A stretch of DNA of 64,000 nucleotides from a virus, in the IMG/VR virus record IMGVR_UViG_3300037337_000170, positions 64,648-128,647 of that record. One strand, written 5' to 3'. A program made the translations under genes and the position numbers. The notes under the pieces are model-generated. The model had not been told where the DNA came from. It made no database searches and saw nothing but the letters and a program-made list of their open reading frames with translations. Shown here piece by piece: positions 6,938 through 64,000 of the stretch (position 1 is the stretch's first letter; each line of letters opens with the position of its first letter).

Positions 6938-8399
6938 AGCAATATTAACATGTATTCAATGTAAAGTGGATTTTACTGGGCGTGCTGGGTCTAAATTTTG
7001 CACCCCAGCATGCAACAATGCTGCAAATGTAGCACGTAATATTGGTGCAGAAAAAAATTGTATGGTATGTGCCAAAATTTTTACTGGTAGAAAGGGCTCT
7101 ACATTCTGTTCTGATGTCTGCCGTGATATTTCAAATGATAAAGATAAAACTGATAAACGAGCAGCTAAACTTTTCTCTAGATTGTTAGTGGCTCACCCAA
7201 CGAATATTAAGTCTTGTGATGAATGTAACACAGATTTTTCTCCAACCATTAAATTAAAAAAGTGGTGTTCCATTGGGTGTAGAACCATCTCATCTGGAAA
7301 AACTCAAAAAAATAAAGCTGATAAAAATCTAAAAATTAAAACCTGTAAAGAATGTAACATAGTCTTTAAGGGAAGAAAAGGAAGTAGTTTTTGTTGTAAA
7401 ATATGTAAAAATAAACATGATCTGAAACAACAACATATTGATGCAGTCGAAAAGTATCAGAGCGTAGAGGAATATGTAATCTGCCCGGTTTGTTCCTTAA
7501 GAATGGGTCAAATTTCCTCAGTGCATATGAAGATTCATGGTATGACAATACCAGAAATCAAGATATTATATCCAGACCAAAAGCTCTTATCAGTGAATCT
7601 TTCAATGGAACTATCTAAGAGAGTTGAGGGAGATAAAAATCCAGGATTTAAGCATGGTGGTAGACTATCTCCATTTTCGAGCAAATTTTTAAAATATAAT
7701 GAATTCAGTAATGTTGAAACAAAGGAAATTGTCGAAAAGCTTTTTGTAAAATCAATCAATACTAGAAATATTAATGATAATAACAGTACTAGATTGTCTT
7801 ACTATACAAGTCGTGGGATGTCGGAATTAGATTCTGAGATAGCTTTACATAACAGGCAAACAACATTTAGTCTAGAAAAATGTATAAATGACTATGGTGA
7901 TGAATTAGGTACTTTAATATGGGCTGATAGACAAGCCAATTGGCAAAATACTTTAAATAGTAAATCCGATGAAGAAAAAGACTTAATAAACTCCAAAAAA
8001 TCATCGAAGGTTAATTATAGATCGCTGTGGTCTCAAACCCTTGACAGTCAGGGCTACTTTTATATTATAGAGATATACCCCAATGTTGTTAAAATTGGAG
8101 TCACATCAAAGTCGGATATAAGAAAAAGATATAATATTATAGATTTGAAAAACACCAATATATTATTGTTTGAAAAATGTCATAGTATCAATCATGCTTT
8201 TCAAATTGAGCAGTTACTTAAACGAAAGAATAAGTTGCTTATAAATAACTCTGATTATGGCGCATTTGGTTGGACAGAGGTTTTCAATAACATAGATACA
8301 AGCGTCATATTAAATGAGGCTTTAATAATGCTTAATAATCCCGATTCAATAGCTATTGAGTTTAATAATGTGTTTAAATTAAAAAATGGTTCTATCTGA
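6906..8399 (+). CDS. Putative homing endonuclease (Zn-ribbon repeats, NUMOD-like segment, GIY-YIG/T5orf172-like C-terminus)
   Basis: Four CxxC...CxxxC repeats, GDKNPGFKHGG, GYFYII...KIGVT...RY...EQ...GWTEVF; AT-rich and inserted within terL. Confidence 0.7.
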   Translation: MSKQKRPTQYKAILTCIQCKVDFTGRAGSKFCTPACNNAANVARNIGAEKNCMVCAKIFTGRKGSTFCSDVCRDISNDKDKTDKRAAKLFSRLLVAHPTNIKSCDECNTDFSPTIKLKKWCSIGCRTISSGKTQKNKADKNLKIKTCKECNIVFKGRKGSSFCCKICKNKHDLKQQHIDAVEKYQSVEEYVICPVCSLRMGQISSVHMKIHGMTIPEIKILYPDQKLLSVNLSMELSKRVEGDKNPGFKHGGRLSPFSSKFLKYNEFSNVETKEIVEKLFVKSINTRNINDNNSTRLSYYTSRGMSELDSEIALHNRQTTFSLEKCINDYGDELGTLIWADRQANWQNTLNSKSDEEKDLINSKKSSKVNYRSLWSQTLDSQGYFYIIEIYPNVVKIGVTSKSDIRKRYNIIDLKNTNILLFEKCHSINHAFQIEQLLKRKNKLLINNSDYGAFGWTEVFNNIDTSVILNEALIMLNNPDSIAIEFNNVFKLKNGSI

Positions 8400-14769: not shown

Positions 14770-15204
14770 ATGGATCACCGCACATCAATCAACGAAGTAC
14801 ACCAGTTTCTGGAAAACCAGAGGAAGGAACGGCTTGAGTCTGCGGTTTCGCTAATGGATGCTTCTGACTCTCAGTTAAAAGCCCTTCTCTATGAAGCACG
14901 TCTAACACAACATAGTCTAGTTCGTGGCTCAATTGCGGAACTTGAAAACACACGAAAAATCGAATCTGCTACATTAGTGCTAGAGTCTCGACTAGATGAA
15001 CTATCTAAGTCAACTCTGGGATCATATATTGAAAAATCAAGTAGAGATGCTGCAGCCAAATATCACAAATCTGGTGAGCTTGGTTTTAATAATGTTGGTG
15101 ATAAGCATTTTGACAAGGGCGAAAAACGCCGCATTGGGGTTGGTTCAGCCGTTAAGCGTCTGGTCAAGGAAGCCCTTGACAAGCTAGATGAGGCTAAAGA
15201 TTAA
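14770..15204 (+). CDS. Hypothetical head/internal protein
   Basis: AGGA RBS; LDELSKSTLGSYIEK module and several L/V-x-E putative protease sites. Confidence 0.7.
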   Translation: MDHRTSINEVHQFLENQRKERLESAVSLMDASDSQLKALLYEARLTQHSLVRGSIAELENTRKIESATLVLESRLDELSKSTLGSYIEKSSRDAAAKYHKSGELGFNNVGDKHFDKGEKRRIGVGSAVKRLVKEALDKLDEAKD

Positions 15205-15206
15205 AT

Positions 15207-15620
15207 ATGCCTATTTCAATCCTAAAACAAACTGAGACTATTGCTGTAGTAAAGGTATTCGGCGCCGGCGGCACCATTGACCTAAATACTGACCTACTGT
15301 CGCCGACGATGATAATTCAAGGTACTCCAACAGTTAATATTATCTTTGCTCAATGGAATATTAGCCCTGGAGCTGCTGATGTCATTTCAGTTACCCGCAA
15401 CGGTATCTCAGTACTTAATCTTCACCAGAATGCAGGTGAAATAGATCTCAGTGGTAATGGTGGTTATGCGGACACAACAGGAAATACATCCCCACTTGTT
15501 GTTACCATTACTGGATTAGGCGAGGCATATTTCACCCTTCGCAAAGCATCTGGTTATAAGTCAAAAATTGAACCAGAAACATTCAGTTCATATGATGACA
15601 CATCTGTAGTCGGAAGCTAA
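15207..15620 (+). CDS. Hypothetical virion protein
   Basis: Beta-rich ORF in the head operon before gp21. Confidence 0.7.
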   Translation: MPISILKQTETIAVVKVFGAGGTIDLNTDLLSPTMIIQGTPTVNIIFAQWNISPGAADVISVTRNGISVLNLHQNAGEIDLSGNGGYADTTGNTSPLVVTITGLGEAYFTLRKASGYKSKIEPETFSSYDDTSVVGS

Positions 15621-15630
15621 GAAGACAATT

Positions 15631-16281
15631 ATGATCTTACTAAAAGAATTCTCAGAGCCATCTAATGTGAATTATCTGACCGAAGCAGACACATCCGGCA
15701 TTAAGCATATGTACATCGAAGGTTGTTTTGCTGAGGCAGTAACCAAAAACAGAAACGGTCGAATCTATCCAAAGAATATTTTGGAATCGGCCGTAGGGAC
15801 TTATGTTGAAAACTATGTTTCTAAAAATAGAGCAATTTCAGAATTAAGTCACCCAGAAAATCGCCCAATGCCGAGTCCTGCATTGGCTAGTCATCTTGTT
15901 ACCGAACTTAAAATGGTCGGTAACAAGGCGATGGGAAAGGCCAGAATTCTAAAAACTCCCCAAGGTCAAATCATTGAGGGTTTGATTAATGGCTCTGTTG
16001 CATTAGGTGTATCTACTCGCGGCCTAGGGTCTGTACAAGAATCTAACGGCACTACATATGTTAAGGATGATCTGGTCCTTTATGCAATCGACTGCGTGCT
16101 GGATCCCAGCGGACTAAGTTGTTTCGTTGATGCGATTAATGAATCCCAAGAGTGGGTTGTTACAGATGATGGTCGGGTACTCGAGAAAACAAAGAGTATT
16201 ATTAATACAACTCCATATATGAATGAATCACAGAAACTTAAATTATTCGGTGATTTTATGCTAGAGATTGTATCACGATAA
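15631..16281 (+). CDS. gp21: Prohead protease gp21
   Basis: YIEG.F, KNRNGRIYP, ELSHP, SH, TPQG, LGVSTRGLGS and DPS motifs. Confidence 0.95.
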   Translation: MILLKEFSEPSNVNYLTEADTSGIKHMYIEGCFAEAVTKNRNGRIYPKNILESAVGTYVENYVSKNRAISELSHPENRPMPSPALASHLVTELKMVGNKAMGKARILKTPQGQIIEGLINGSVALGVSTRGLGSVQESNGTTYVKDDLVLYAIDCVLDPSGLSCFVDAINESQEWVVTDDGRVLEKTKSIINTTPYMNESQKLKLFGDFMLEIVSR

Positions 16282-59382: not shown

Positions 59383-60762
59383 ATGTCAGAAGTGAAAATT
59401 GAAACCAGCATCCTAGCCAATCTACTAATTAATGAAAAATACAGCCGTGTGGTTATTCCTTTTCTTAAGGATACCTACTTTAGCGATAAAGCTGAAAGCC
59501 AAATTCTAAAACTTTCACTAGAATTTTTCAATAAACACAATAGAGCTACTACTCCAGAGATTCTTTCACTGGAGTTAAAAAATGTCAAGGGACTTTCAGA
59601 TGCCGAATTAGAAACTGCCCAGCTTCTTGTTAATTCATTTTCTACTACCCCAACTGATATTGATTGGCTGCTAACTGCCACCGAAACTTTTTGTAAAAAA
59701 CGGGCTATCTATCTTGCCATCATGGAATCTATTGGCATCATGGATGGCTCATCGAAACTAACTGATGATGCCATACCCAAGCTTCTTGCTGATGCCATCA
59801 ATATTAACTTTGATTCATCAGTAGGCCATGCTTATTTGGCCGATGCTTCAGACCGCTTTGATCAATATAATCTAGTCGAGGATAAGATTTCGTTTGGTAT
59901 TACTGCTCTCGATAAATTGACCAAGGGTGGAATGAGTAGAAAAACTCTAAACTCAGTAGGCGGTTCATCTGGCGCCGGCAAATCAATTTTTATGACTAAC
60001 AATGCCGCAGTCGCATTGGCCGCCGGTAAGAATGTATTGTATATTACCATGGAGATGTCTGAAATTAGGATCTCCGAACGTATCGATGCGAACCTAATGA
60101 ACATCACGGTTGATAGTATTAAGGGTCTTCCAAAAGATGTCTTCATGTCGAAAATCGATAAGATTTCATCCAAGACTCATGGCAAACTATATGTTAAGGA
60201 ATATCCTACAGGCGCAGCACATTCTGGACATTTTCGTGGCCTACTAGAAGAACTAAAAACCAAACAGAATTTTATTCCCAATCTAATTATTATTGACTAT
60301 CTAGGTATCTGTGCTTCTGCTAGGATCAAGATGGGTGGGTCGACTAACACCAATACATATGTTAAGACTATCGCAGAAGAACTACGATCACTGGCAATTG
60401 AATTTAACGTACCGATTCTTACAGGCCATCAACTAAATCGTGGTGCTTATGATAATTCCGATGTGTCAATGGCTGACACCGCAGATAGTATCGGCTTGAT
60501 AATGAGCCTGGATAGCGCCTTTACTCTTATTGCCACAGATGAATTATCAGAGATGGATCAAATTATCATCAAGATGTTAAAAAATCGGTATGGTGAACTT
60601 GATAAATTTGTTGTGGGTCTTGAAAAAGCAAAAATGAAATTCTATGAACTAGAGGCAAGTGCCCAGACTTTGGCCAAACCTGCATTGGCCCCTCAACCCA
60701 GTAATGCACCACAACGATTAGGTAAAGCAGCCGCAGAAAAATTCTCTGGCTTTAAGATGTAA
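59383..60762 (+). CDS. gp41: Replicative helicase gp41
   Basis: FDSSVGH.Y, GAGKS, LYITMEM.E..I.ERIDAN, KEYPT, IDYL.IC and LKNRY motifs. Confidence 0.96.
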   Translation: MSEVKIETSILANLLINEKYSRVVIPFLKDTYFSDKAESQILKLSLEFFNKHNRATTPEILSLELKNVKGLSDAELETAQLLVNSFSTTPTDIDWLLTATETFCKKRAIYLAIMESIGIMDGSSKLTDDAIPKLLADAININFDSSVGHAYLADASDRFDQYNLVEDKISFGITALDKLTKGGMSRKTLNSVGGSSGAGKSIFMTNNAAVALAAGKNVLYITMEMSEIRISERIDANLMNITVDSIKGLPKDVFMSKIDKISSKTHGKLYVKEYPTGAAHSGHFRGLLEELKTKQNFIPNLIIIDYLGICASARIKMGGSTNTNTYVKTIAEELRSLAIEFNVPILTGHQLNRGAYDNSDVSMADTADSIGLIMSLDSAFTLIATDELSEMDQIIIKMLKNRYGELDKFVVGLEKAKMKFYELEASAQTLAKPALAPQPSNAPQRLGKAAAEKFSGFKM

Positions 60763-60999: not shown

Positions 61000-61635
61000 A
61001 TGAAGAGAGTTTTGCTTGTATTGGCATTTTTCTCTTCGGTTTCATATGCTTCATGCCCAGAGCTATACGCTGCTGGGCTTAAAAAGCATAAGCAGTCGAC
61101 TGAATTGTGCAATATTTTTTTTGTAATTTCATATGATGAGGTCAATTCTAGGCCAAAATTTGTTTCAGAAAGACTAAAACAAGGCACCGATGTTGGTAAA
61201 ATTGAAAGAGTAAATTCTTTTAGACAAGATTCACGCATTAAAAATAGCCCTGAAAATGCTGATTATGCTGCATCTGGTTATGACCGTGGACATCTGGCAC
61301 CATCAGCGAATGCTTCAACAAAAGATGAACAACGCGCTACATTTGTTCTGACAAATATGACACCGCAAGTACCAACCCTGAATAGAAAGGCCTGGAAGGT
61401 ATTAGAGGATAATATTAGAGATATTTTCTATGCATCAACTTTGGATGTATTCGTTGTTACCATTCCAATTTACTCTAAAGATCCACCTTACATGCTCGGC
61501 GCGATTCCTATACCTACTGGTTATTGGAAGGTGGTAATAGCAAATGGCGAAACAAAAACATACTACGCAGATAATATTTTTATGGCCGAAGTAAAAGAAC
61601 ATAAACAGATAAAGTGGCTAGAGCTAATACGTTAA
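61000..61635 (+). CDS. DNA/RNA non-specific endonuclease (NucA/EndA family) with signal peptide
   Basis: MKRVLLVLAFFSSVSYA signal; SGYDRGHLAP, TNMTPQ...NR..W..LE and IPTGYWK motifs. Confidence 0.9.
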   Translation: MKRVLLVLAFFSSVSYASCPELYAAGLKKHKQSTELCNIFFVISYDEVNSRPKFVSERLKQGTDVGKIERVNSFRQDSRIKNSPENADYAASGYDRGHLAPSANASTKDEQRATFVLTNMTPQVPTLNRKAWKVLEDNIRDIFYASTLDVFVVTIPIYSKDPPYMLGAIPIPTGYWKVVIANGETKTYYADNIFMAEVKEHKQIKWLELIR

Positions 61636-61651
61636 AAATTTAAATTTTTTA

Positions 61652-61750
61652 TGTACAAAGAGTTACTCTAAGTAGGTGTCTGTTTATTTTTCTAGCCAGA
61701 TTTGGTGAATATAATATATTATGCTCTCCAGTCATTGGTTGTTCGTAAGG
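61652..61750 (+). promoter_or_regulatory. Repeated orphan promoter element, copy 4 (plus strand)
   Basis: TGTACAA-N4-TTACT-N14-GTTTATT-N21-TATAAT...ATGCTCTCCAG...TTGTTCGTAAG. Confidence 0.55.
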
Positions 61751-61934
61751 TCATTCTACCTTGTTGGGTAGATGTTTAGTATTCTTGAGGCATGCCTAGG
61801 ACAGTCTTAGCCGCTGTTTAAGCGGGTTTATGCTTTAGCCGATGTTGACCTAGACACTCTACAAGCGACGCTCACACATGATTTTACTTTTATTCTGGGC
61901 GGTGATATAATAACTTATCAACACGGAAACATAA

Positions 61935-62087
61935 ATGTACATTCTTATCACTTCCAGCGGCAAAGTCATGAAATTTACGGTCAAGGCTTGTGCAGAGTTG
62001 TATGCAGTGTGCTACGGCGGTCAGATTATCGACAACCAGCTTTATGCTAGCGTATACGCCGAGGTTTTTGAAGCAGAACTTGTGTAA
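61935..62087 (+). CDS. Small hypothetical early protein (50 aa)
   Basis: Own promoter and GGA RBS; MYILITSSGKVMKFTVKACAELY... Confidence 0.6.
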   Translation: MYILITSSGKVMKFTVKACAELYAVCYGGQIIDNQLYASVYAEVFEAELV

Positions 62088-62316
62088 AGTTTTACTTTTA
62101 TTCTGGGCGGTGATATAATAAACACATACCAACCAACACGGAAACATCATGAACAACGTAATCAAACAAGCTAGGTTTTAGCCCTTGTGGCATAGAGTTG
62201 GCGCCGTGTATTCCTATCACCATATTGAATATGATGGTGTTATATAGTAGCATTGCAGAAGAAACAGAAGCAATAGGTAAAAGTTATTACCTGATTACAA
62301 ACTATGGAAAAAGAAT

Positions 62317-62484
62317 ATGAAAACAATACACTATATTGATGTTAGTAAGATGTCTGAAAAAGAACTATGTGGCATTCTTGGACTTGAATATACTCCTTGG
62401 TATAAAAGTTCTTTATTTTGGTCACTAGCATTATCGTTTTCTATGCCGTCTTTGCTTATACTAATTAATATTTTTGGAAATTAA
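62317..62484 (+). CDS. Small protein with C-terminal TM (55 aa)
   Basis: MKTIHYIDVSKMSEKELCGILGLEYTPWYKS... Confidence 0.5.
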   Translation: MKTIHYIDVSKMSEKELCGILGLEYTPWYKSSLFWSLALSFSMPSLLILINIFGN

Positions 62485-62603
62485 AAAGAACACAACAGGA
62501 TGAAGATTGGTTTAGTCACCAGCTTCGAACCAATCTCCCAAAATGTTTTTACTTTTATTGTTGAATGTGTTATAATAAACACATACCAACCAAGGATCAC
62601 AAA

Positions 62604-62753
62604 ATGTTTTCAGTCATCGCCTTCAACGACAATACCTTATCCAGAACTGTTGTTGCTGATTCCCTGTCCGAAGTAGACGCACAGGACTTGATGCTAGAAG
62701 CAGAGCAAACCAATCTTGATGTGTCTGTCTTTTTCGAAGTTGTTCAAGACTGA
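62604..62753 (+). CDS. Small acidic early protein (49 aa)
   Basis: AAGGA RBS after a promoter. Confidence 0.6.
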   Translation: MFSVIAFNDNTLSRTVVADSLSEVDAQDLMLEAEQTNLDVSVFFEVVQD

Positions 62754-62788
62754 TTTTACTTTTATTACTAGATGTGTTATAATAACTT

Positions 62789-63007
62789 ATGAACAAAATT
62801 ATTCAATCTTTTATCGACAAATCCACCAATCATAATACCGGTTACTTTGATAAGGAAATGTTTGCTGCACTGATCGTTAAGGCCTGCGCTGATGCAGCTG
62901 ATATGGGCTACGAAGGTGATTGCGGAGATTATGTCGGGGATTATGTCGGGGAGTCAATGGGCTATGGCGAAGACAAGGGAATTACGAACTGGAGATTAGG
63001 CAGTTAA
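62789..63007 (+). CDS. Hypothetical early protein, probably leaderless
   Basis: ATG 5 nt after TATAAT; FAALIVKACA motif common in small phage ORFs. Confidence 0.65.
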   Translation: MNKIIQSFIDKSTNHNTGYFDKEMFAALIVKACADAADMGYEGDCGDYVGDYVGESMGYGEDKGITNWRLGS

Positions 63008-63088
63008 CTCAGTCGGATTAGAAATTTCAAATCCTTTCGCTACCACACAAAAATATTTTTACTTTTATTACTAGATGTGTTATAATAG

Positions 63089-63214
63089 AAACTTAGGATG
63101 ATTTATCAGGTAGTATAACGGCTGATCACCGTAACATGGTTGTTACCCGCCGGGCTGGGTATGTGGTTCGATTCCACGGTATTACCTGATAAGTTTTTCT
63201 AAAACCTGAAGTTT
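63089..63214 (+). ncRNA. Putative structured tRNA-like ncRNA
   Basis: Own promoter; 13-bp closing stem (63103-63115/63180-63192), internal hairpins and T-arm GTGG-TTCGATT-CCAC. Confidence 0.5.
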
Positions 63215-63273
63215 TAGTTATATAAATAATAAATAACATGTAACAAACAAAAAGATTTAGATAGAAAAATTGT

Positions 63274-63423
63274 ATGAAATTTGCTTCGATGAAACACACA
63301 AAAACCTTATCGTTGGCCACATGCCTCCGCGGGTTTGATGCGATCGGCAATCAGCTGACCATCGTGTGGGCACCGGCAAGCCTAAATACACGTCATTATG
63401 AGACCGGACCTCCGGGTATCTGA
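63274..63423 (+). CDS. Putative leader peptide (49 aa) ending GPPGI
   Basis: Follows late promoter TATAAATA at 63221; its 3' end is complementary to the terminator arm. Confidence 0.4.
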   Translation: MKFASMKHTKTLSLATCLRGFDAIGNQLTIVWAPASLNTRHYETGPPGI

Positions 63424-63445
63424 ACCAGATCTAAGATCAACTTCA

Positions 63446-63478
63446 GACCCCCGGAATCCACAAGGACCCGGGGGTTTT
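63446..63478 (+). terminator. Intrinsic terminator/attenuator hairpin
   Basis: GACCCCCGG...CCGGGGGTTTT. Confidence 0.75.
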
Positions 63479-63530
63479 ACTTTTATTACTAGATGTGTTA
63501 TAATAAACACATACCAAGAGGAAACGAAAG

Positions 63531-63664
63531 AATATTTAGGTGGGTAGTGTAGTAATTTTGAATATTTGTTGAGGTTCGTATACAGTCACTGATGGGTGCA
63601 CCGAGGTACTTACTGAGGATTTTCAAAAAGCCTAAACCGTGCATTGCCCACCCACCTAAATGTT
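63531..63664 (+). ncRNA. Putative long-stem ncRNA
   Basis: Own promoter; AATATTTAGGTGGGT pairs with ACCCACCTAAATGTT; no ORF. Confidence 0.45.
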
Positions 63665-64000
63665 TTACTTTTATTACTAGATGTGTTATAATAACTTATG
63701 TTCAGGGGGAATGGAAGAATATTTAGGAAGATTGGTTGGTTTTGATGTTTAGAGTTCTATGGCTGGGTATATGTTAACCTGGTAGACGGCCCGCTTAGAC
63801 GGTGGGAGGCTGCAAGTTCGAATCTTGCTACTCAGACAGAAAACTTTAAACATCAAAACCAACCAATCTCCCAAAATGTTTTACTTTTATTACTAGATGT
63901 GTTATAATAACTTATGTTCAGGGGGAATGGAAGAATATTTAGGAAGATTGGTTGGTTTTGATGTTTAGAGTTCTATGGCTGGGTATATGTTAACCTGGTA
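63661..64000 (+). repeat. 216-bp tandem repeat (second copy truncated by window end)
   Basis: 63661-63784 is identical to 63877-64000. Confidence 0.9.
63763..63836 (+). tRNA. tRNA-Pro-like cloverleaf with aberrant anticodon loop (UUAGACG); pseudo-tRNA or tRNA mimic
   Basis: Acceptor CTGGGTA/TACTCAG+A, D-loop AACCTGGTA, anticodon stem CCCGC/GTGGG, T-arm GCAAG-TTCGAAT-CTTGC; no encoded CCA. Confidence 0.65.

What the first reader, a model, noticed from the sequence alone, without database searches (positions are those of the whole stretch)
62500..64000. Array of promoter-driven RNAs with long terminal stems enclosing variable, often tRNA-like payloads
Seen: successive non-coding units lie between early promoters. 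63718-63880 forms a 39-bp stem (2 mismatches) enclosing a complete tRNA-like cloverleaf. 62502-62547 has the same flanks (GAAGATTGGTT...AACCAATCTCCCAAAATGTT) around only 15 nt. 63531-63664 has related flanks (AATATTTAGG...CCTAAATGTT) around a different payload. 63103-63192 closes a multibranch RNA with a T-arm. Inference: a modular RNA display or processing platform, in which a constant duplex scaffold (RNase III-like processing, stabilisation or circularisation) presents swappable tRNA mimics, for example as decoys for anticodon nucleases or other RNA-sensing defences. I know of no described system with this layout.
Basis: partly seen in the sequence, partly recalled or inferred. Interest (0 to 1): 0.85.

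Follow-up and report, generated by a model that had tools for sequence, protein, structure and literature searches.

The report
Phage promoter cassettes carrying stem-closed small RNAs
At the head of its tRNA gene cluster, an uncultured T4-like phage carries a row of tiny early-promoter units, each making a tRNA or tRNA-like RNA whose two ends pair in a long helix; related phages gain and lose these units at the repeated promoters, a new twist on known T4 promoter/stem-loop cassettes.

Summary
Window 62500-64000 holds five copies of one early promoter (TTTACT-N17-TATAAT with TG). Between them lie non-coding units closed by long helices.

- D (63716-63882): a 39-bp stem with 2 mismatches, leading into a real tRNA. 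It is tandemly repeated.
- C: 17 bp.
- B: a tRNA-like RNA with a T-arm and no anticodon loop.
- A: a plain hairpin.

The window ends where locus L001 begins. L001 is the phage's tRNA cluster and holds more units of this kind.

- The shared flanks are the ends of PeSL-type cassettes. Each 3' arm runs into the U-run that is also the next promoter's -35.
- Close relatives differ by whole units exactly at the promoters.
- D is a tRNA-Pro(UGG) relative with a rewritten anticodon loop, sitting inside an A-type hairpin.
- The helices look selected as RNA on the + strand: G.U:A.C is 43:15 against 50:43 elsewhere, with compensatory changes.

Transcription, termination, processing and any decoy role are untested. 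No RNA run was listed.

I class it as a new variant of a known kind: PeSL cassettes plus leader-trailer helices, with T4 rnaC as the nearest tRNA-like RNA. This scan has noted PeSL-like arrays on other DNA. None of the 8 notes shown to me describes RNA genes inside the stems.

The parts
62497..62547 (+). Unit A: plain stem-loop after the 55-codon ORF 62317-62484. Arms are GAAGATTGGTT (62502-62512) and AACCAATCTCC (62528-62538). It lies directly upstream of a promoter, the PeSL-type stem-loop position.
   Evidence: (D4, I3, I4). Homologous hairpins occur in L003 (two copies, 95% identity) and as a promoter-driven unit in L002 2160-2240.
62548..62576 (+). Early promoter TTTACT-N17-TATAAT with TG. 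It drives a 49-codon ORF (62604-62753).
62755..62783 (+). Early promoter. The ATG of the 72-codon ORF 62789-63007 lies 5 nt after the -10, so the mRNA is probably leaderless.
63020..63057 (+). Remnant of a unit. It keeps the 3' half of a T-arm and the 3' arm (GCTACCACACAAAAAT) of a tRNA-like unit that is complete in L002 (1541-1707) and L003 (14215-14377). The 5' part is replaced here by the ORF.
   Evidence: (L002 1650-2177 = window 63005-63539).
63058..63086 (+). Early promoter of unit B.
63093..63205 (+). Unit B: tRNA-like RNA. A 17- to 23-bp closing helix starts about 6 nt after the -10 and ends in GUUUUUCU. Inside are a D-like hairpin, a short hairpin with a 4-nt loop in place of the anticodon arm, a variable hairpin and a canonical T-arm.
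   Evidence: I5; z -3.2; only a weak tRNA-Sec match, 22 bits. G.U to G-C change in the helix; 98.2% identity to L002 and L003, against 84-93% for the neighbouring sequence.
63221..63423 (+). Context: T4-late-type TATAAATA (63221-63228) and a conserved 49-codon ORF (63274-63423).
   Evidence: (four phages, 46-84% amino-acid identity).
63448..63475 (+). Canonical GC-rich terminator hairpin (CCCCCGG...CCGGGGG). Its U-run is the TTTTAC of the next -35.
   Evidence: (-26.3 kcal/mol, z -4.6).
63476..63504 (+). Early promoter of unit C. It is also the left boundary of the C+D insertion/deletion relative to L003.
63529..63666 (+). Unit C: a 17-bp closing helix around a 104-nt payload of unknown kind. 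The payload has no relative in any locus fetched.
   Evidence: (I10).
63664..63692 (+). Early promoter of unit D, copy 1.
63716..63882 (+). Unit D, copy 1: a leader-trailer helix (39 bp with 2 mismatches, an internal loop, then the acceptor stem) enclosing tRNA 63763-63837. The body is canonical, no CCA is encoded, and the anticodon loop is UUAGACG ('AGA', C at position 37). It is a relative of tRNA-Pro(UGG) in L002.
63880..64000 (+). Promoter (63880-63908) and the 5' part of unit D, copy 2, cut by the window end. L001 starts with the next base of the tRNA.
   Evidence: (D2).

Best explanation
The stretch is the promoter-proximal part of the tRNA and small-RNA gene cluster of an uncultured T4-like myovirus. 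It is organised as PeSL-type cassettes whose cargo is structured RNA rather than ORFs.

How each unit is built:
- It is a separate early transcription unit with a host-sigma70-type promoter.
- A purine-rich leader of about 6-28 nt follows.
- Then comes an RNA whose 5' and 3' flanks pair in a long leader-trailer helix.
- The 3' strand of that helix runs into ...AAAUGUUUUACUUUUAUU, which is also the upstream element and -35 of the next promoter.

Proposed mechanism: the helix plus U-run ends transcription (terminator or attenuator) and leaves an RNA with both ends buried in duplex. A true tRNA payload such as D would then have to be released by host enzymes, since the phage encodes neither RNase III nor a CCA-adding enzyme. 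RNase III would cut the long duplex, followed by RNase P, 3' trimming and CCA addition. The tRNA-like payloads may stay closed.

The 'same flanks' are shared cassette ends spread by recombination between the repeated promoter/stem modules. This recombination inserts, deletes, duplicates and hybridises units. A SegB-like GIY-YIG endonuclease in the cluster may add breaks at T-arm motifs.

Shown: the promoter motif and its copies; the helices and their excess; a strand-specific RNA-type pairing bias and compensatory changes; unit turnover at promoters; D's descent from tRNA-Pro.

Inferred: transcription from these promoters, termination, nuclease processing, and what the payloads do.
For: Phage type. 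gp41 helicase is 46-49% identical to T4-like phages and lies next to UvsX.

Promoter. There are 29 copies, all on the + strand. It fits the T4/PST PeSL consensus TTTACW-N17-TAYWAT given in PMC4122927 (whole text, parts 1-2 read).

Stem-loops. Of the 8 promoters in 61600-64000, 4 have a stem-loop directly upstream: A, the GC-rich terminator, and the C and D helices.

Helix base. In C, D, the L003 hybrid, the L002 hairpin and the L002/L003 '1545' units, the helix base pairs A(G/A)AAUAUUU with AAAUGUUUU of the next -35. L002 keeps this pairing through U.G pairs.

Turnover.
- L003 (helicase 100% identical) lacks C and D exactly between two promoter copies: L003 14322-14826 = window 63005-63517, then 14785-16200 = L001 96-1512 at 99.2%.
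- L003 carries a hybrid unit with a D-type leader and 5' arm joined to an A-type hairpin. The same junction letters appear in a contig of run X2 (table 5c).
- A contig of X4 runs from 63517 into L001-type sequence (table 7).
- The window keeps only the 3' half of a unit that is complete in L002 and L003.

Origin of D. It is 86.9% identical over 107 nt to L002 tRNA-Pro(UGG). That gene sits inside the cluster with a 12-bp leader-trailer extension.

RNA-level selection.
- The + strand folds better than the - strand for B, C, D and L002_1545.
- Non-Watson-Crick positions in the array helices are G.U 43 against A.C 15 (binomial p = 3e-4). In the rest of the genome they are 50 against 43.
- Compensatory pairs: 7 of 43 (A3), 7 of 32 (A4), 2 of 38 (A5).
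- In the 'CTATTCTA' helix family, 11 of 21 pairs are compensatory. 94.3% of cells are paired against 81.1% shuffled, and 0 of 500 shuffles reach that.

Processing enzymes. No RNase III or CCA-adding gene is found in either record.

SegB relative. L001 862-1027 is 70% identical to T4 segB. The Pfam GIY-YIG matches are just below the curated cut-offs (19.9 against 22.6 bits; SegE_GIY-YIG 21.8 against 25).
Against: - No RNA data exist, so transcription, 3' ends and processing are all inferred.
- The helix bases next to the U-run are A/U-rich, unlike the one canonical GC-rich terminator (63448-63475). The simple terminator scan did not call them, but its loop limit of 3-8 nt excludes them by design.
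- Several long helices in L001 (325, 1633, 4593) are not followed by a U-run. Termination therefore cannot explain the class as a whole.
- 4 of the 8 promoters in 61600-64000 have no upstream stem-loop.
- The G.U:A.C count includes homologous helices from three related phages, so the cells are not independent. For the window phage alone it is 16:8.
- Compensatory counts rest on 2 to 5 sequences.
- A fully paired acceptor extension is expected to hinder bacterial RNase P (recalled, not tested). This sits awkwardly with ordinary tRNA maturation.
- Unit C folds only weakly better than shuffles and has no relatives.
Confidence: 0.6

Rival explanations
1. The units are dedicated non-decoding tRNA mimics made early in infection, with closed ends. 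They act as decoys or competitors for tRNA-targeting host defences or tRNA-handling enzymes. The helix is there to present and protect the mimic, not merely to end transcription.
For: - Three tRNA-derived payloads keep acceptor, D and T arms but lack a usable anticodon loop.
  - B has a 4-nt-loop hairpin instead.
  - D has UUAGACG with C37 where its L002 relative has CUUGGAA.
  - The His-like unit has a GUG loop in L001 but a 6-nt deletion of that loop in L005, and the L205 contig is the same there.
- L005:14188, a further tRNA-like unit, has an oversized 15-nt loop in that arm.
- B is 98.2% identical across three phages, against 84-93% for its flanks.
- D has its own strong promoter and is duplicated.
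- The same D loop occurs in contigs of two further runs: X2 (4 differences, all elsewhere) and X4 (0 differences) (tables 3 and 8).
- No canonical tRNA-Pro is found elsewhere in the two records.
- Phage tRNAs that counter tRNA-cleaving defences are documented: PMC10264068, PMC11464382 and PMC11555353 (search listing and first lines of the abstracts only).
Against: - There is no functional or expression data.
- Scaffolds are not constant between units.
- Payload turnover is as expected for any hyperplastic-region cargo.
- Loss of the anticodon loop could be the first step of pseudogene decay in a region of rapid flux.
- Unit C is not tRNA-like and has no relative in any locus fetched.
Confidence: 0.17
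2. Ordinary stable-RNA precursors. The helices are leader-trailer processing stems like those around 16S and 23S rRNA. They are cut by host RNase III to release normal tRNAs and small RNAs from longer transcripts. Their position next to promoters is incidental.
For: - Helices of 19-45 bp flank RNAs in mid-cluster positions with no U-run after them (L001 325, 1633, 4593).
- They covary.
- Leader-trailer helices are universal around rRNA (PMC11404451, abstract).
- A leader-trailer extension of a tRNA-like acceptor stem promotes RNase P processing of mascRNA (PMC8457004, abstract).
Against: - For A, B, C and D the helix base lies at a fixed register against the U-run/-35.
- B's helix begins about 6 nt after the -10, so its primary transcript would already be end-paired.
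- By the same finder, the T4 tRNA region has only 1 such helix in 4 kb, and it is not around an RNA gene. This is therefore not the general T4-type way of making tRNAs.
Confidence: 0.15
3. DNA-level feature only. The inverted repeats are recombination scars or cruciform-prone palindromes of the cassette junctions, with no role in RNA. Alternatively, the terminal duplication is an assembly artefact.
For: - Each promoter is itself flanked by the same inverted repeat (I1; Rfam's spurious miRNA-precursor hits across 63830-63985).
- The junctions are demonstrably recombination points.
- The contig ends inside the repeat.
Against: - There is a strand-specific excess of G.U over A.C (43:15 against 50:43), and the + strand folds better.
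- G.U pairs are kept at the helix base in L002.
- Payloads fold as tRNA or tRNA-like on the + strand only.
- Unit D is present in independent contigs: L001 and runs X1-X4 (table 8).
Confidence: 0.06

Closest known systems
PeSL (promoter-early stem-loop) cassettes of T4-type phages (Arbiol et al. 2010, PMC2839356; Comeau et al. 2014, PMC4122927)
   Same: - A T4-like phage with same-strand repeats of a strong sigma70-like early promoter. The consensus is the one given for T4/PST.
- A stem-loop immediately upstream that serves as terminator or attenuator.
- Small self-contained units, with insertions, deletions and replacements between close relatives lying at the motif.
   Different: - The cargo here is non-coding RNA (a tRNA, tRNA-like RNAs and unknown RNAs), not ORFs.
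- In C and D the cargo sits inside the stem-loop itself, so the 'loop' is 59-104 nt of structured RNA and the stem reaches 39 bp. B is likewise enclosed by its own helix, which ends in a U-run rather than at the next promoter.
- The 2010 paper's main text does not contain the word tRNA (0 occurrences). The 2014 paper mentions tRNAs only as genome content.
Leader-trailer helices of precursor rRNA (PMC11404451, PMC10250234) and the leader-trailer extension of the mascRNA acceptor stem (PMC8457004)
   Same: Complementary segments flank a stable RNA and form a long covarying helix. For mascRNA, an extended acceptor stem sits on a tRNA-like RNA.
   Different: - The RNAs enclosed here are tRNA-sized.
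- The setting is a phage.
- Each unit has its own promoter.
- The helix abuts a U-run and the next promoter.
- Processing is untested.

I saw the abstracts of PMC11404451 and PMC8457004, and only the search listing for PMC10250234.
T4 stable RNAs rnaC (species 1) and rnaD (species 2) in the T4 tRNA cluster
   Same: - Small non-tRNA RNAs encoded among the tRNA genes of a T4-type phage, next to segB (annotation).
- rnaC folds with a canonical T-arm, CCGGG-UUCGAAU-CCCGG (z -4.6), like unit B.
- Their function is unknown (recalled).
   Different: - There is no sequence similarity to any unit.
- T4 rnaC and rnaD have no long terminal helix and no annotated private promoter.
- The T4 region has 1 long helix by my finder, against 12 in 8.8 kb here.
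Bacterial Y RNA (YrlA) with a tRNA-like domain
   Same: A long stem formed by the two RNA ends, plus a tRNA-like module. It is reported from bacteria and phages (recalled).
   Different: - No Rfam family other than tRNA and spurious miRNA-precursor or weak hits matched in 61000-64000 at E up to 10.
- Here the helix prolongs the acceptor stem. In YrlA the ends lie in a stem at the anticodon-arm side (recalled, not tested).

Membership tests
PeSL cassette | Host is a T4-type phage and the array lies in a variable (hyperplastic) region | tested here: met
   gp41 is 46-49% identical to T4-like phages, with UvsX adjacent. The region differs between phages whose helicases are 97-100% identical.
PeSL cassette | Repeated sigma70-like early promoter (T4/PST type TTTACW-N17-TAYWAT) | tested here: met
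   29 copies, all on the + strand. 8 lie in 61600-64000, each with TG before the -10.
PeSL cassette | Stem-loop directly upstream of the promoter | tested here: met
   Met at 4 of the 8 promoters in 61600-64000 (62548, 63476, 63664, 63880). The others follow a stop codon or a remnant arm.
PeSL cassette | The stem-loop terminates transcription | not testable with these tools
   The helix base abuts the U-run. No RNA data are available.
PeSL cassette | Insertions, deletions and replacements between relatives are bounded by the motif | tested here: met
   C+D are absent from L003 between two promoter copies. There is also a hybrid unit and a half-unit remnant.
PeSL cassette | Cargo is a small ORF placed between two motifs | tested here: not met
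   B, C and D carry no conserved ORF. The cargo of C and D lies inside the stem.
tRNA (RF00005), unit D payload | Cloverleaf scoring above the gathering score | tested here: met
   43.5 bits against 29. ARAGORN also calls it.
tRNA (RF00005), unit D payload | Canonical 7-nt anticodon loop (U33, purine 37) with an anticodon that fits the tRNA's identity | tested here: not met
   The loop is UUAGACG, with C at position 37 and anticodon AGA, on a class I body whose L002 relative is tRNA-Pro(UGG) with loop CUUGGAA. The identity rules are recalled.
tRNA (RF00005), unit D payload | Aminoacylation and use in translation | not testable with these tools
   -
Leader-trailer / RNase III processing helix | Complementary leader and trailer around a stable RNA, kept by covariation | tested here: met
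   The sets are small, 2-5 sequences.
Leader-trailer / RNase III processing helix | Cleavage by RNase III | not testable with these tools
   The phage records encode no RNase III, so a host enzyme would be needed.
YrlA / Y RNA | Match to the Rfam model | tested here: not met
   No such hit in the window at gathering thresholds, in 61000-64000 at E<=10, in L001 at E<=0.1, or in L002/L003/L005 at E<=0.01.
YrlA / Y RNA | Neighbouring Ro (rsr) gene | not tested
   -
T4 rnaC/rnaD | Sequence homology to the T4 RNAs | tested here: not met
   blastn of window 62485-64000 and L001 1-6200 against T4 69500-73500 hit only segB and an 18-nt tRNA word.

The most novel reading that the evidence does not exclude
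This phage lineage maintains a rapidly exchanged arsenal of autonomous early RNA genes. These are anticodon-less or anticodon-altered tRNA mimics, each locked by a long leader-trailer helix that hides both ends. Each is packaged with its own promoter and terminator as a recombination-ready cassette. They would work as RNA-level counter-defence, acting as decoys or inhibitors of tRNA-cleaving or tRNA-tail-cleaving immunity or of tRNA-processing enzymes. They would be the long-sought functional analogues of T4 rnaC and rnaD.
Probability: 0.2. Interest if true: 0.85.

Novelty: new variant of a known kind. Interest (0 to 1): 0.55.

Why it matters
If the reading holds, PeSL-type shuffling in T4-like phages moves RNA genes as well as small ORFs. 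One helix would also do three jobs: terminator, end protection and recombination junction.

The region shows tRNA genes turning into non-decoding tRNA-like RNAs that stay conserved and are expressed from private early promoters. This bears on two open questions:
- what phage-encoded tRNA-like stable RNAs do (T4 species 1 and 2 RNAs are unexplained; recalled);
- how phages answer the many tRNA-targeting defence systems now being described.

The units are short (110-190 nt) and self-contained, so they can be cloned and tested directly.

Tried and rejected
Expression. The look-up of sequencing runs listed no RNA holder. All 11 runs are DNA from salt-lake metagenomes. This says nothing about expression.

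Read laying.
- Only contigs broken at every promoter repeat were laid.
- Unit C has no cover in X2-X4. I do not use that as evidence.
- The contig depth of unit D in X1 (27.9 against 13-15 beside it) cannot be read as a copy number, by the tool's own note.

Relatives.
- megablast and blastn of the region against 50,697 phage records: no match.
- The tRNA block of L001 gave only short tRNA-level hits in 6 records, so no cultured relative could be compared.
- NucA-based and 49-aa-ORF-based locus searches returned only the contigs behind L002 and L003.
- The metagenome scan with a conserved tRNA-Leu(UAG) word gave 6 loci. Two are the L005 phage again. Four are more distant phages without this promoter, some with other long helices (CCATATTGAAGT-type arms) that I did not pursue.
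- The pattern AAATGTTTT-N0-2-ACTTTTAWT was too unspecific: the scan stopped at its 120-stretch limit and most matches looked like chance.
- My first promoter pattern had the wrong spacing and found nothing. It was corrected.

Rfam. Nothing but tRNAs was found, plus spurious miRNA-precursor hits on the inverted repeat and weak sub-threshold hits.

Ideas rejected.
- A coding reading of the units. The 15-codon ORF in D's leader is frameshifted in L003.
- The PPG leader-peptide idea linking the 49-aa ORF to tRNA-Pro. The motif is LPG, IPG and VPG in relatives.
- YrlA membership and T4 rnaC/rnaD homology (see the membership tests).
- Circularisation or permuted tRNA: nothing in the sequence calls for it.

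Not done. My first stem finder was too permissive and its output was cut, so only one search is used for counts. No covariance model was built, no protein structure or complex job was run, and paper supplements were closed and not needed.
Full report
WHAT THE WINDOW IS

The window is bases 64648-128647 of a 128,647-bp IMG/VR virus record, estimated 73% complete. Its replication genes place it among T4-like myoviruses. The gp41-type helicase (59383-60762) is 46-49% identical to helicases of Synechococcus and Stenotrophomonas T4-like phages, and a UvsX-like gene lies beside it. No cultured phage matches the finding region at the DNA level.

One promoter motif, TTTACTTTTATT-N7-GTG-N-TATAAT, occurs 29 times in the record, always on the + strand. 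Read as a promoter this is TTTACT-N17-TATAAT with an extended -10. An independent consensus scan finds 8 of these in 61600-64000. The motif fits the early-promoter consensus TTTACW-N17-TAYWAT that Comeau et al. give for T4/PST PeSLs (PMC4122927).

Unit D has arms of 52 nt at 85% complementarity and folds at -75.7 kcal/mol, z = -7.5. It continues through an internal loop into the acceptor stem of a tRNA. That tRNA scores 43.5 bits on Rfam's tRNA model.

- Unit C is closed by 17 pairs (z = -2.1).
- Unit B is closed by 17-23 pairs around a four-hairpin RNA with a canonical T-arm (z = -3.2).
- Unit A is a plain hairpin with the same arms as D's outer helix.
- Unit D with its promoter is repeated in tandem, and the window stops inside copy 2.

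THE ADJOINING SEQUENCE

A 28-nt word of D's tRNA hit one other IMG/VR contig, fetched as L001 (52,642 bp). L001 begins with exactly the base that follows the window's last base within the tRNA. CheckV completeness of the two records is 73% and 22%. I treat L001 as the probable continuation.

L001 is the phage's tRNA cluster. ARAGORN makes 16 calls and Rfam finds 13 tRNA and 2 tRNA-Sec-like matches in 6.6 kb. It also contains a GIY-YIG ORF that is 70% identical at the DNA level to T4 segB.

L001 holds more units of the same build:
- a promoter-to-promoter unit with a 24-bp helix around 38 nt (L001 3982-4112, z = -5.1);
- a 26-bp helix around 85 nt (z = -5.6);
- a 21-bp helix that prolongs the acceptor stem of an Asn-like tRNA-like RNA;
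- a 21-bp helix around a His(GUG) tRNA.

Helices of 16 bp or more enclosing roughly 20 nt or more number 12 in these 8.8 kb. The other 126.2 kb of the genome have 38. By the same finder, the T4 tRNA region has one, and it is not around an RNA gene.

WHAT THE FLANKS ARE

In C, D and four related units in relatives, the base of the helix pairs A(G/A)AAUAUUU of the leader with AAAUGUUUU. This second stretch is the sequence just upstream of, and running into, the -35 of the next promoter. Elsewhere in the array a canonical GC-rich terminator (63448-63475) uses the same TTTTAC as its U-run. Unit B ends in GUUUUUCU, and its helix starts about 6 nt after the -10.

The constant part of the 'scaffold' is thus the terminator-plus-promoter junction. 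That is the definition of a PeSL (PMC2839356, passages seen; PMC4122927).

The arms shared by A and D have a different origin. L002 comes from a phage whose NucA gene is 94% identical to the window's. There, an A-type hairpin is a free-standing promoter-driven unit (2160-2240). D's closest tRNA relative is a normal tRNA-Pro(UGG) inside the cluster, with only a 12-bp leader-trailer extension. D therefore looks like that tRNA, with its extension, sitting in the loop of an A-type hairpin.

UNITS ARE EXCHANGED AT THE PROMOTERS

L003 has a 100% identical helicase. It matches window 63005-63517 and then jumps to L001 96-1512 at 99.2% identity. Units C and both D copies are therefore absent between two identical promoter copies. 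Other signs of exchange:
- L003 has a hybrid unit with D's leader and 5' arm followed by an A hairpin. A contig of run X2 carries the same junction letters (table 5c).
- A contig of X4 runs from 63517 into L001-type sequence (table 7).
- The window keeps only the 3' half of a tRNA-like unit that is whole in L002 and L003 (63020-63057). The break lies in the T-arm.
- L005 (helicase 73% identical) has the same promoter and, at B's position, a different payload in a 19-bp helix. It is followed by the same late-type TATAAATA and a conserved 49-codon ORF.

This is the behaviour described for PeSLs. SegB of T4 cuts at the T-psi-C motif of tRNA genes (PMC2330249, abstract). A SegB-like enzyme here could add to the flux; this is inference.

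THE HELICES LOOK SELECTED AS RNA

- The + strand folds better than the - strand for B, C, D and the L002 1545 unit.
- I used a finder that treats G.U and A.C alike. Non-Watson-Crick positions in 26 array helices are 43 G.U against 15 A.C (p = 3e-4). In 38 helices elsewhere in the genome they are 50 against 43.
- For the window phage alone the ratio is 16:8. Some helices are homologous between phages, so this is supportive rather than strong.
- Compensatory changes occur in 7 of 43 pairs (L001 4588 against L002 5192), 7 of 32 (L001 1738 against L005 14843) and 2 of 38 (D against L002 tRNA-Pro).
- A helix family with arms CTATTCTA... occurs in three phage lineages (five copies in four loci) around payloads of 13 to about 95 nt. 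It has compensatory changes in 11 of 21 pairs. 94.3% of cells are paired against 81.1% in shuffles, and 0 of 500 shuffles are as high. It comprises only five sequences, two of them nearly identical.

THE PAYLOADS

D's body is a canonical tRNA, but its anticodon loop is UUAGACG where the L002 relative has CUUGGAA. The same loop stands in contigs of X2 and X4 (tables 3 and 8). No canonical tRNA-Pro is found in either record.

B has a 4-nt-loop hairpin where the anticodon arm should be. It is 98.2% identical to its copies in L002 and L003. The adjacent spacer is 84-89% identical and the ORF 90-93%.

The His-like unit lost its anticodon loop in L005, and the L205 contig is the same there. C has no relative in any locus fetched. 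Neither record encodes RNase III or a CCA-adding enzyme.

VERDICT

The best-supported reading (0.6) is a PeSL-type cassette array whose cargo is small structured RNAs. Each is enclosed by a leader-trailer helix that also forms the cassette's terminator.

Transcription, termination and processing are inferred, and the function of the payloads is open. Loss of anticodon loops with retention of the tRNA body keeps a tRNA-mimic, counter-defence reading alive (about 0.2). Its literature context is PMC10264068, PMC11464382 and PMC11555353, seen only as a search listing with first abstract lines.

The nearest known tRNA-like phage RNA is T4 rnaC. It has a T-arm but shows no homology to these units and has no terminal helix.

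I searched for a described equivalent and found none. This library lacks most subscription-journal papers of the 1970s-80s on T4 and T5 tRNA regions.

Earlier notes of this scan describe PeSL-like arrays on other DNA. None of the 8 shown describes RNA genes nested in the stems.

Noticed in passing
L005 14476-14532 (also present in L205): Sub-threshold match to the type III hammerhead ribozyme: 30.7 bits against a gathering score of 48.5. The CUGAUGAG - stem II - CGAAAC core is intact, but the cleavage triplet is not canonical. It lies inside the tRNA cluster of the 73%-helicase relative.
   Followed up: partly
L001 860-1543: GIY-YIG ORF inside the tRNA cluster. Its first 166 nt are 70% identical to T4 segB, whose product cuts tRNA genes at the T-psi-C motif. 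The window's half-unit remnant (63020-63057) breaks within a T-arm.
   Followed up: partly
window 63221-63423: T4-late-type TATAAATA followed by a 49-codon ORF that is conserved in four phages (46-84% amino-acid identity).
   Followed up: partly
window 62784-62791; L001 4139-4146: One promoter class has ATG 5 nt after the -10 (TATAATAACTTATG), which implies leaderless mRNAs. A second class carries a conserved leader, AAACACATACCAAC...GGA...ATG. Both leader types are reused in front of the non-coding units.
   Followed up: no
L001 395-490, 1557-1627, 4741-4830; L002 3106-3197; G001 7722-7797: Many tRNAs of this lineage are unusual. Examples are a 92-nt tRNA-Asn, a Tyr(GUA)-like gene with a very long variable arm and a GAUCGUAAC T-loop that ARAGORN misses, and Arg(UCU)-like genes with long variable arms. 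ARAGORN and Rfam disagree on several.
   Followed up: no
L001 4025-4062 and 4487-4544; L002 5070-5138: A conserved roughly 40-nt motif (GAGACATAGCTCC.GTAA.ACGGAGAAGCATGGTGGTTATC) occurs twice in L001 and once in L002. One L001 copy is the payload of a promoter-to-promoter unit. It matches no Rfam family.
   Followed up: no
window 62140-62316; L002 1200-1440; L003 12690-12810 and 13520-13770: Non-coding stretch after the promoter at 62091. It has a conserved core (GCTAGGTTTTAGCCC...GGCGCCGTGTATTCC) that is longer and duplicated in relatives. It may be another structured RNA. The window copy does not fold better than shuffles (z = +0.27).
   Followed up: partly
L204 2570-2926 and 8760-8807; L206 8092-8136; L005 15176-15324: More distant T4-like phages that share the tRNA-Leu(UAG) gene carry long helices with arms of the type CCATATTGAAGT / ACTTCAATATGG. 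These often start at the CCA end of a tRNA, and their loops range from 3 to 86 nt.
   Followed up: no
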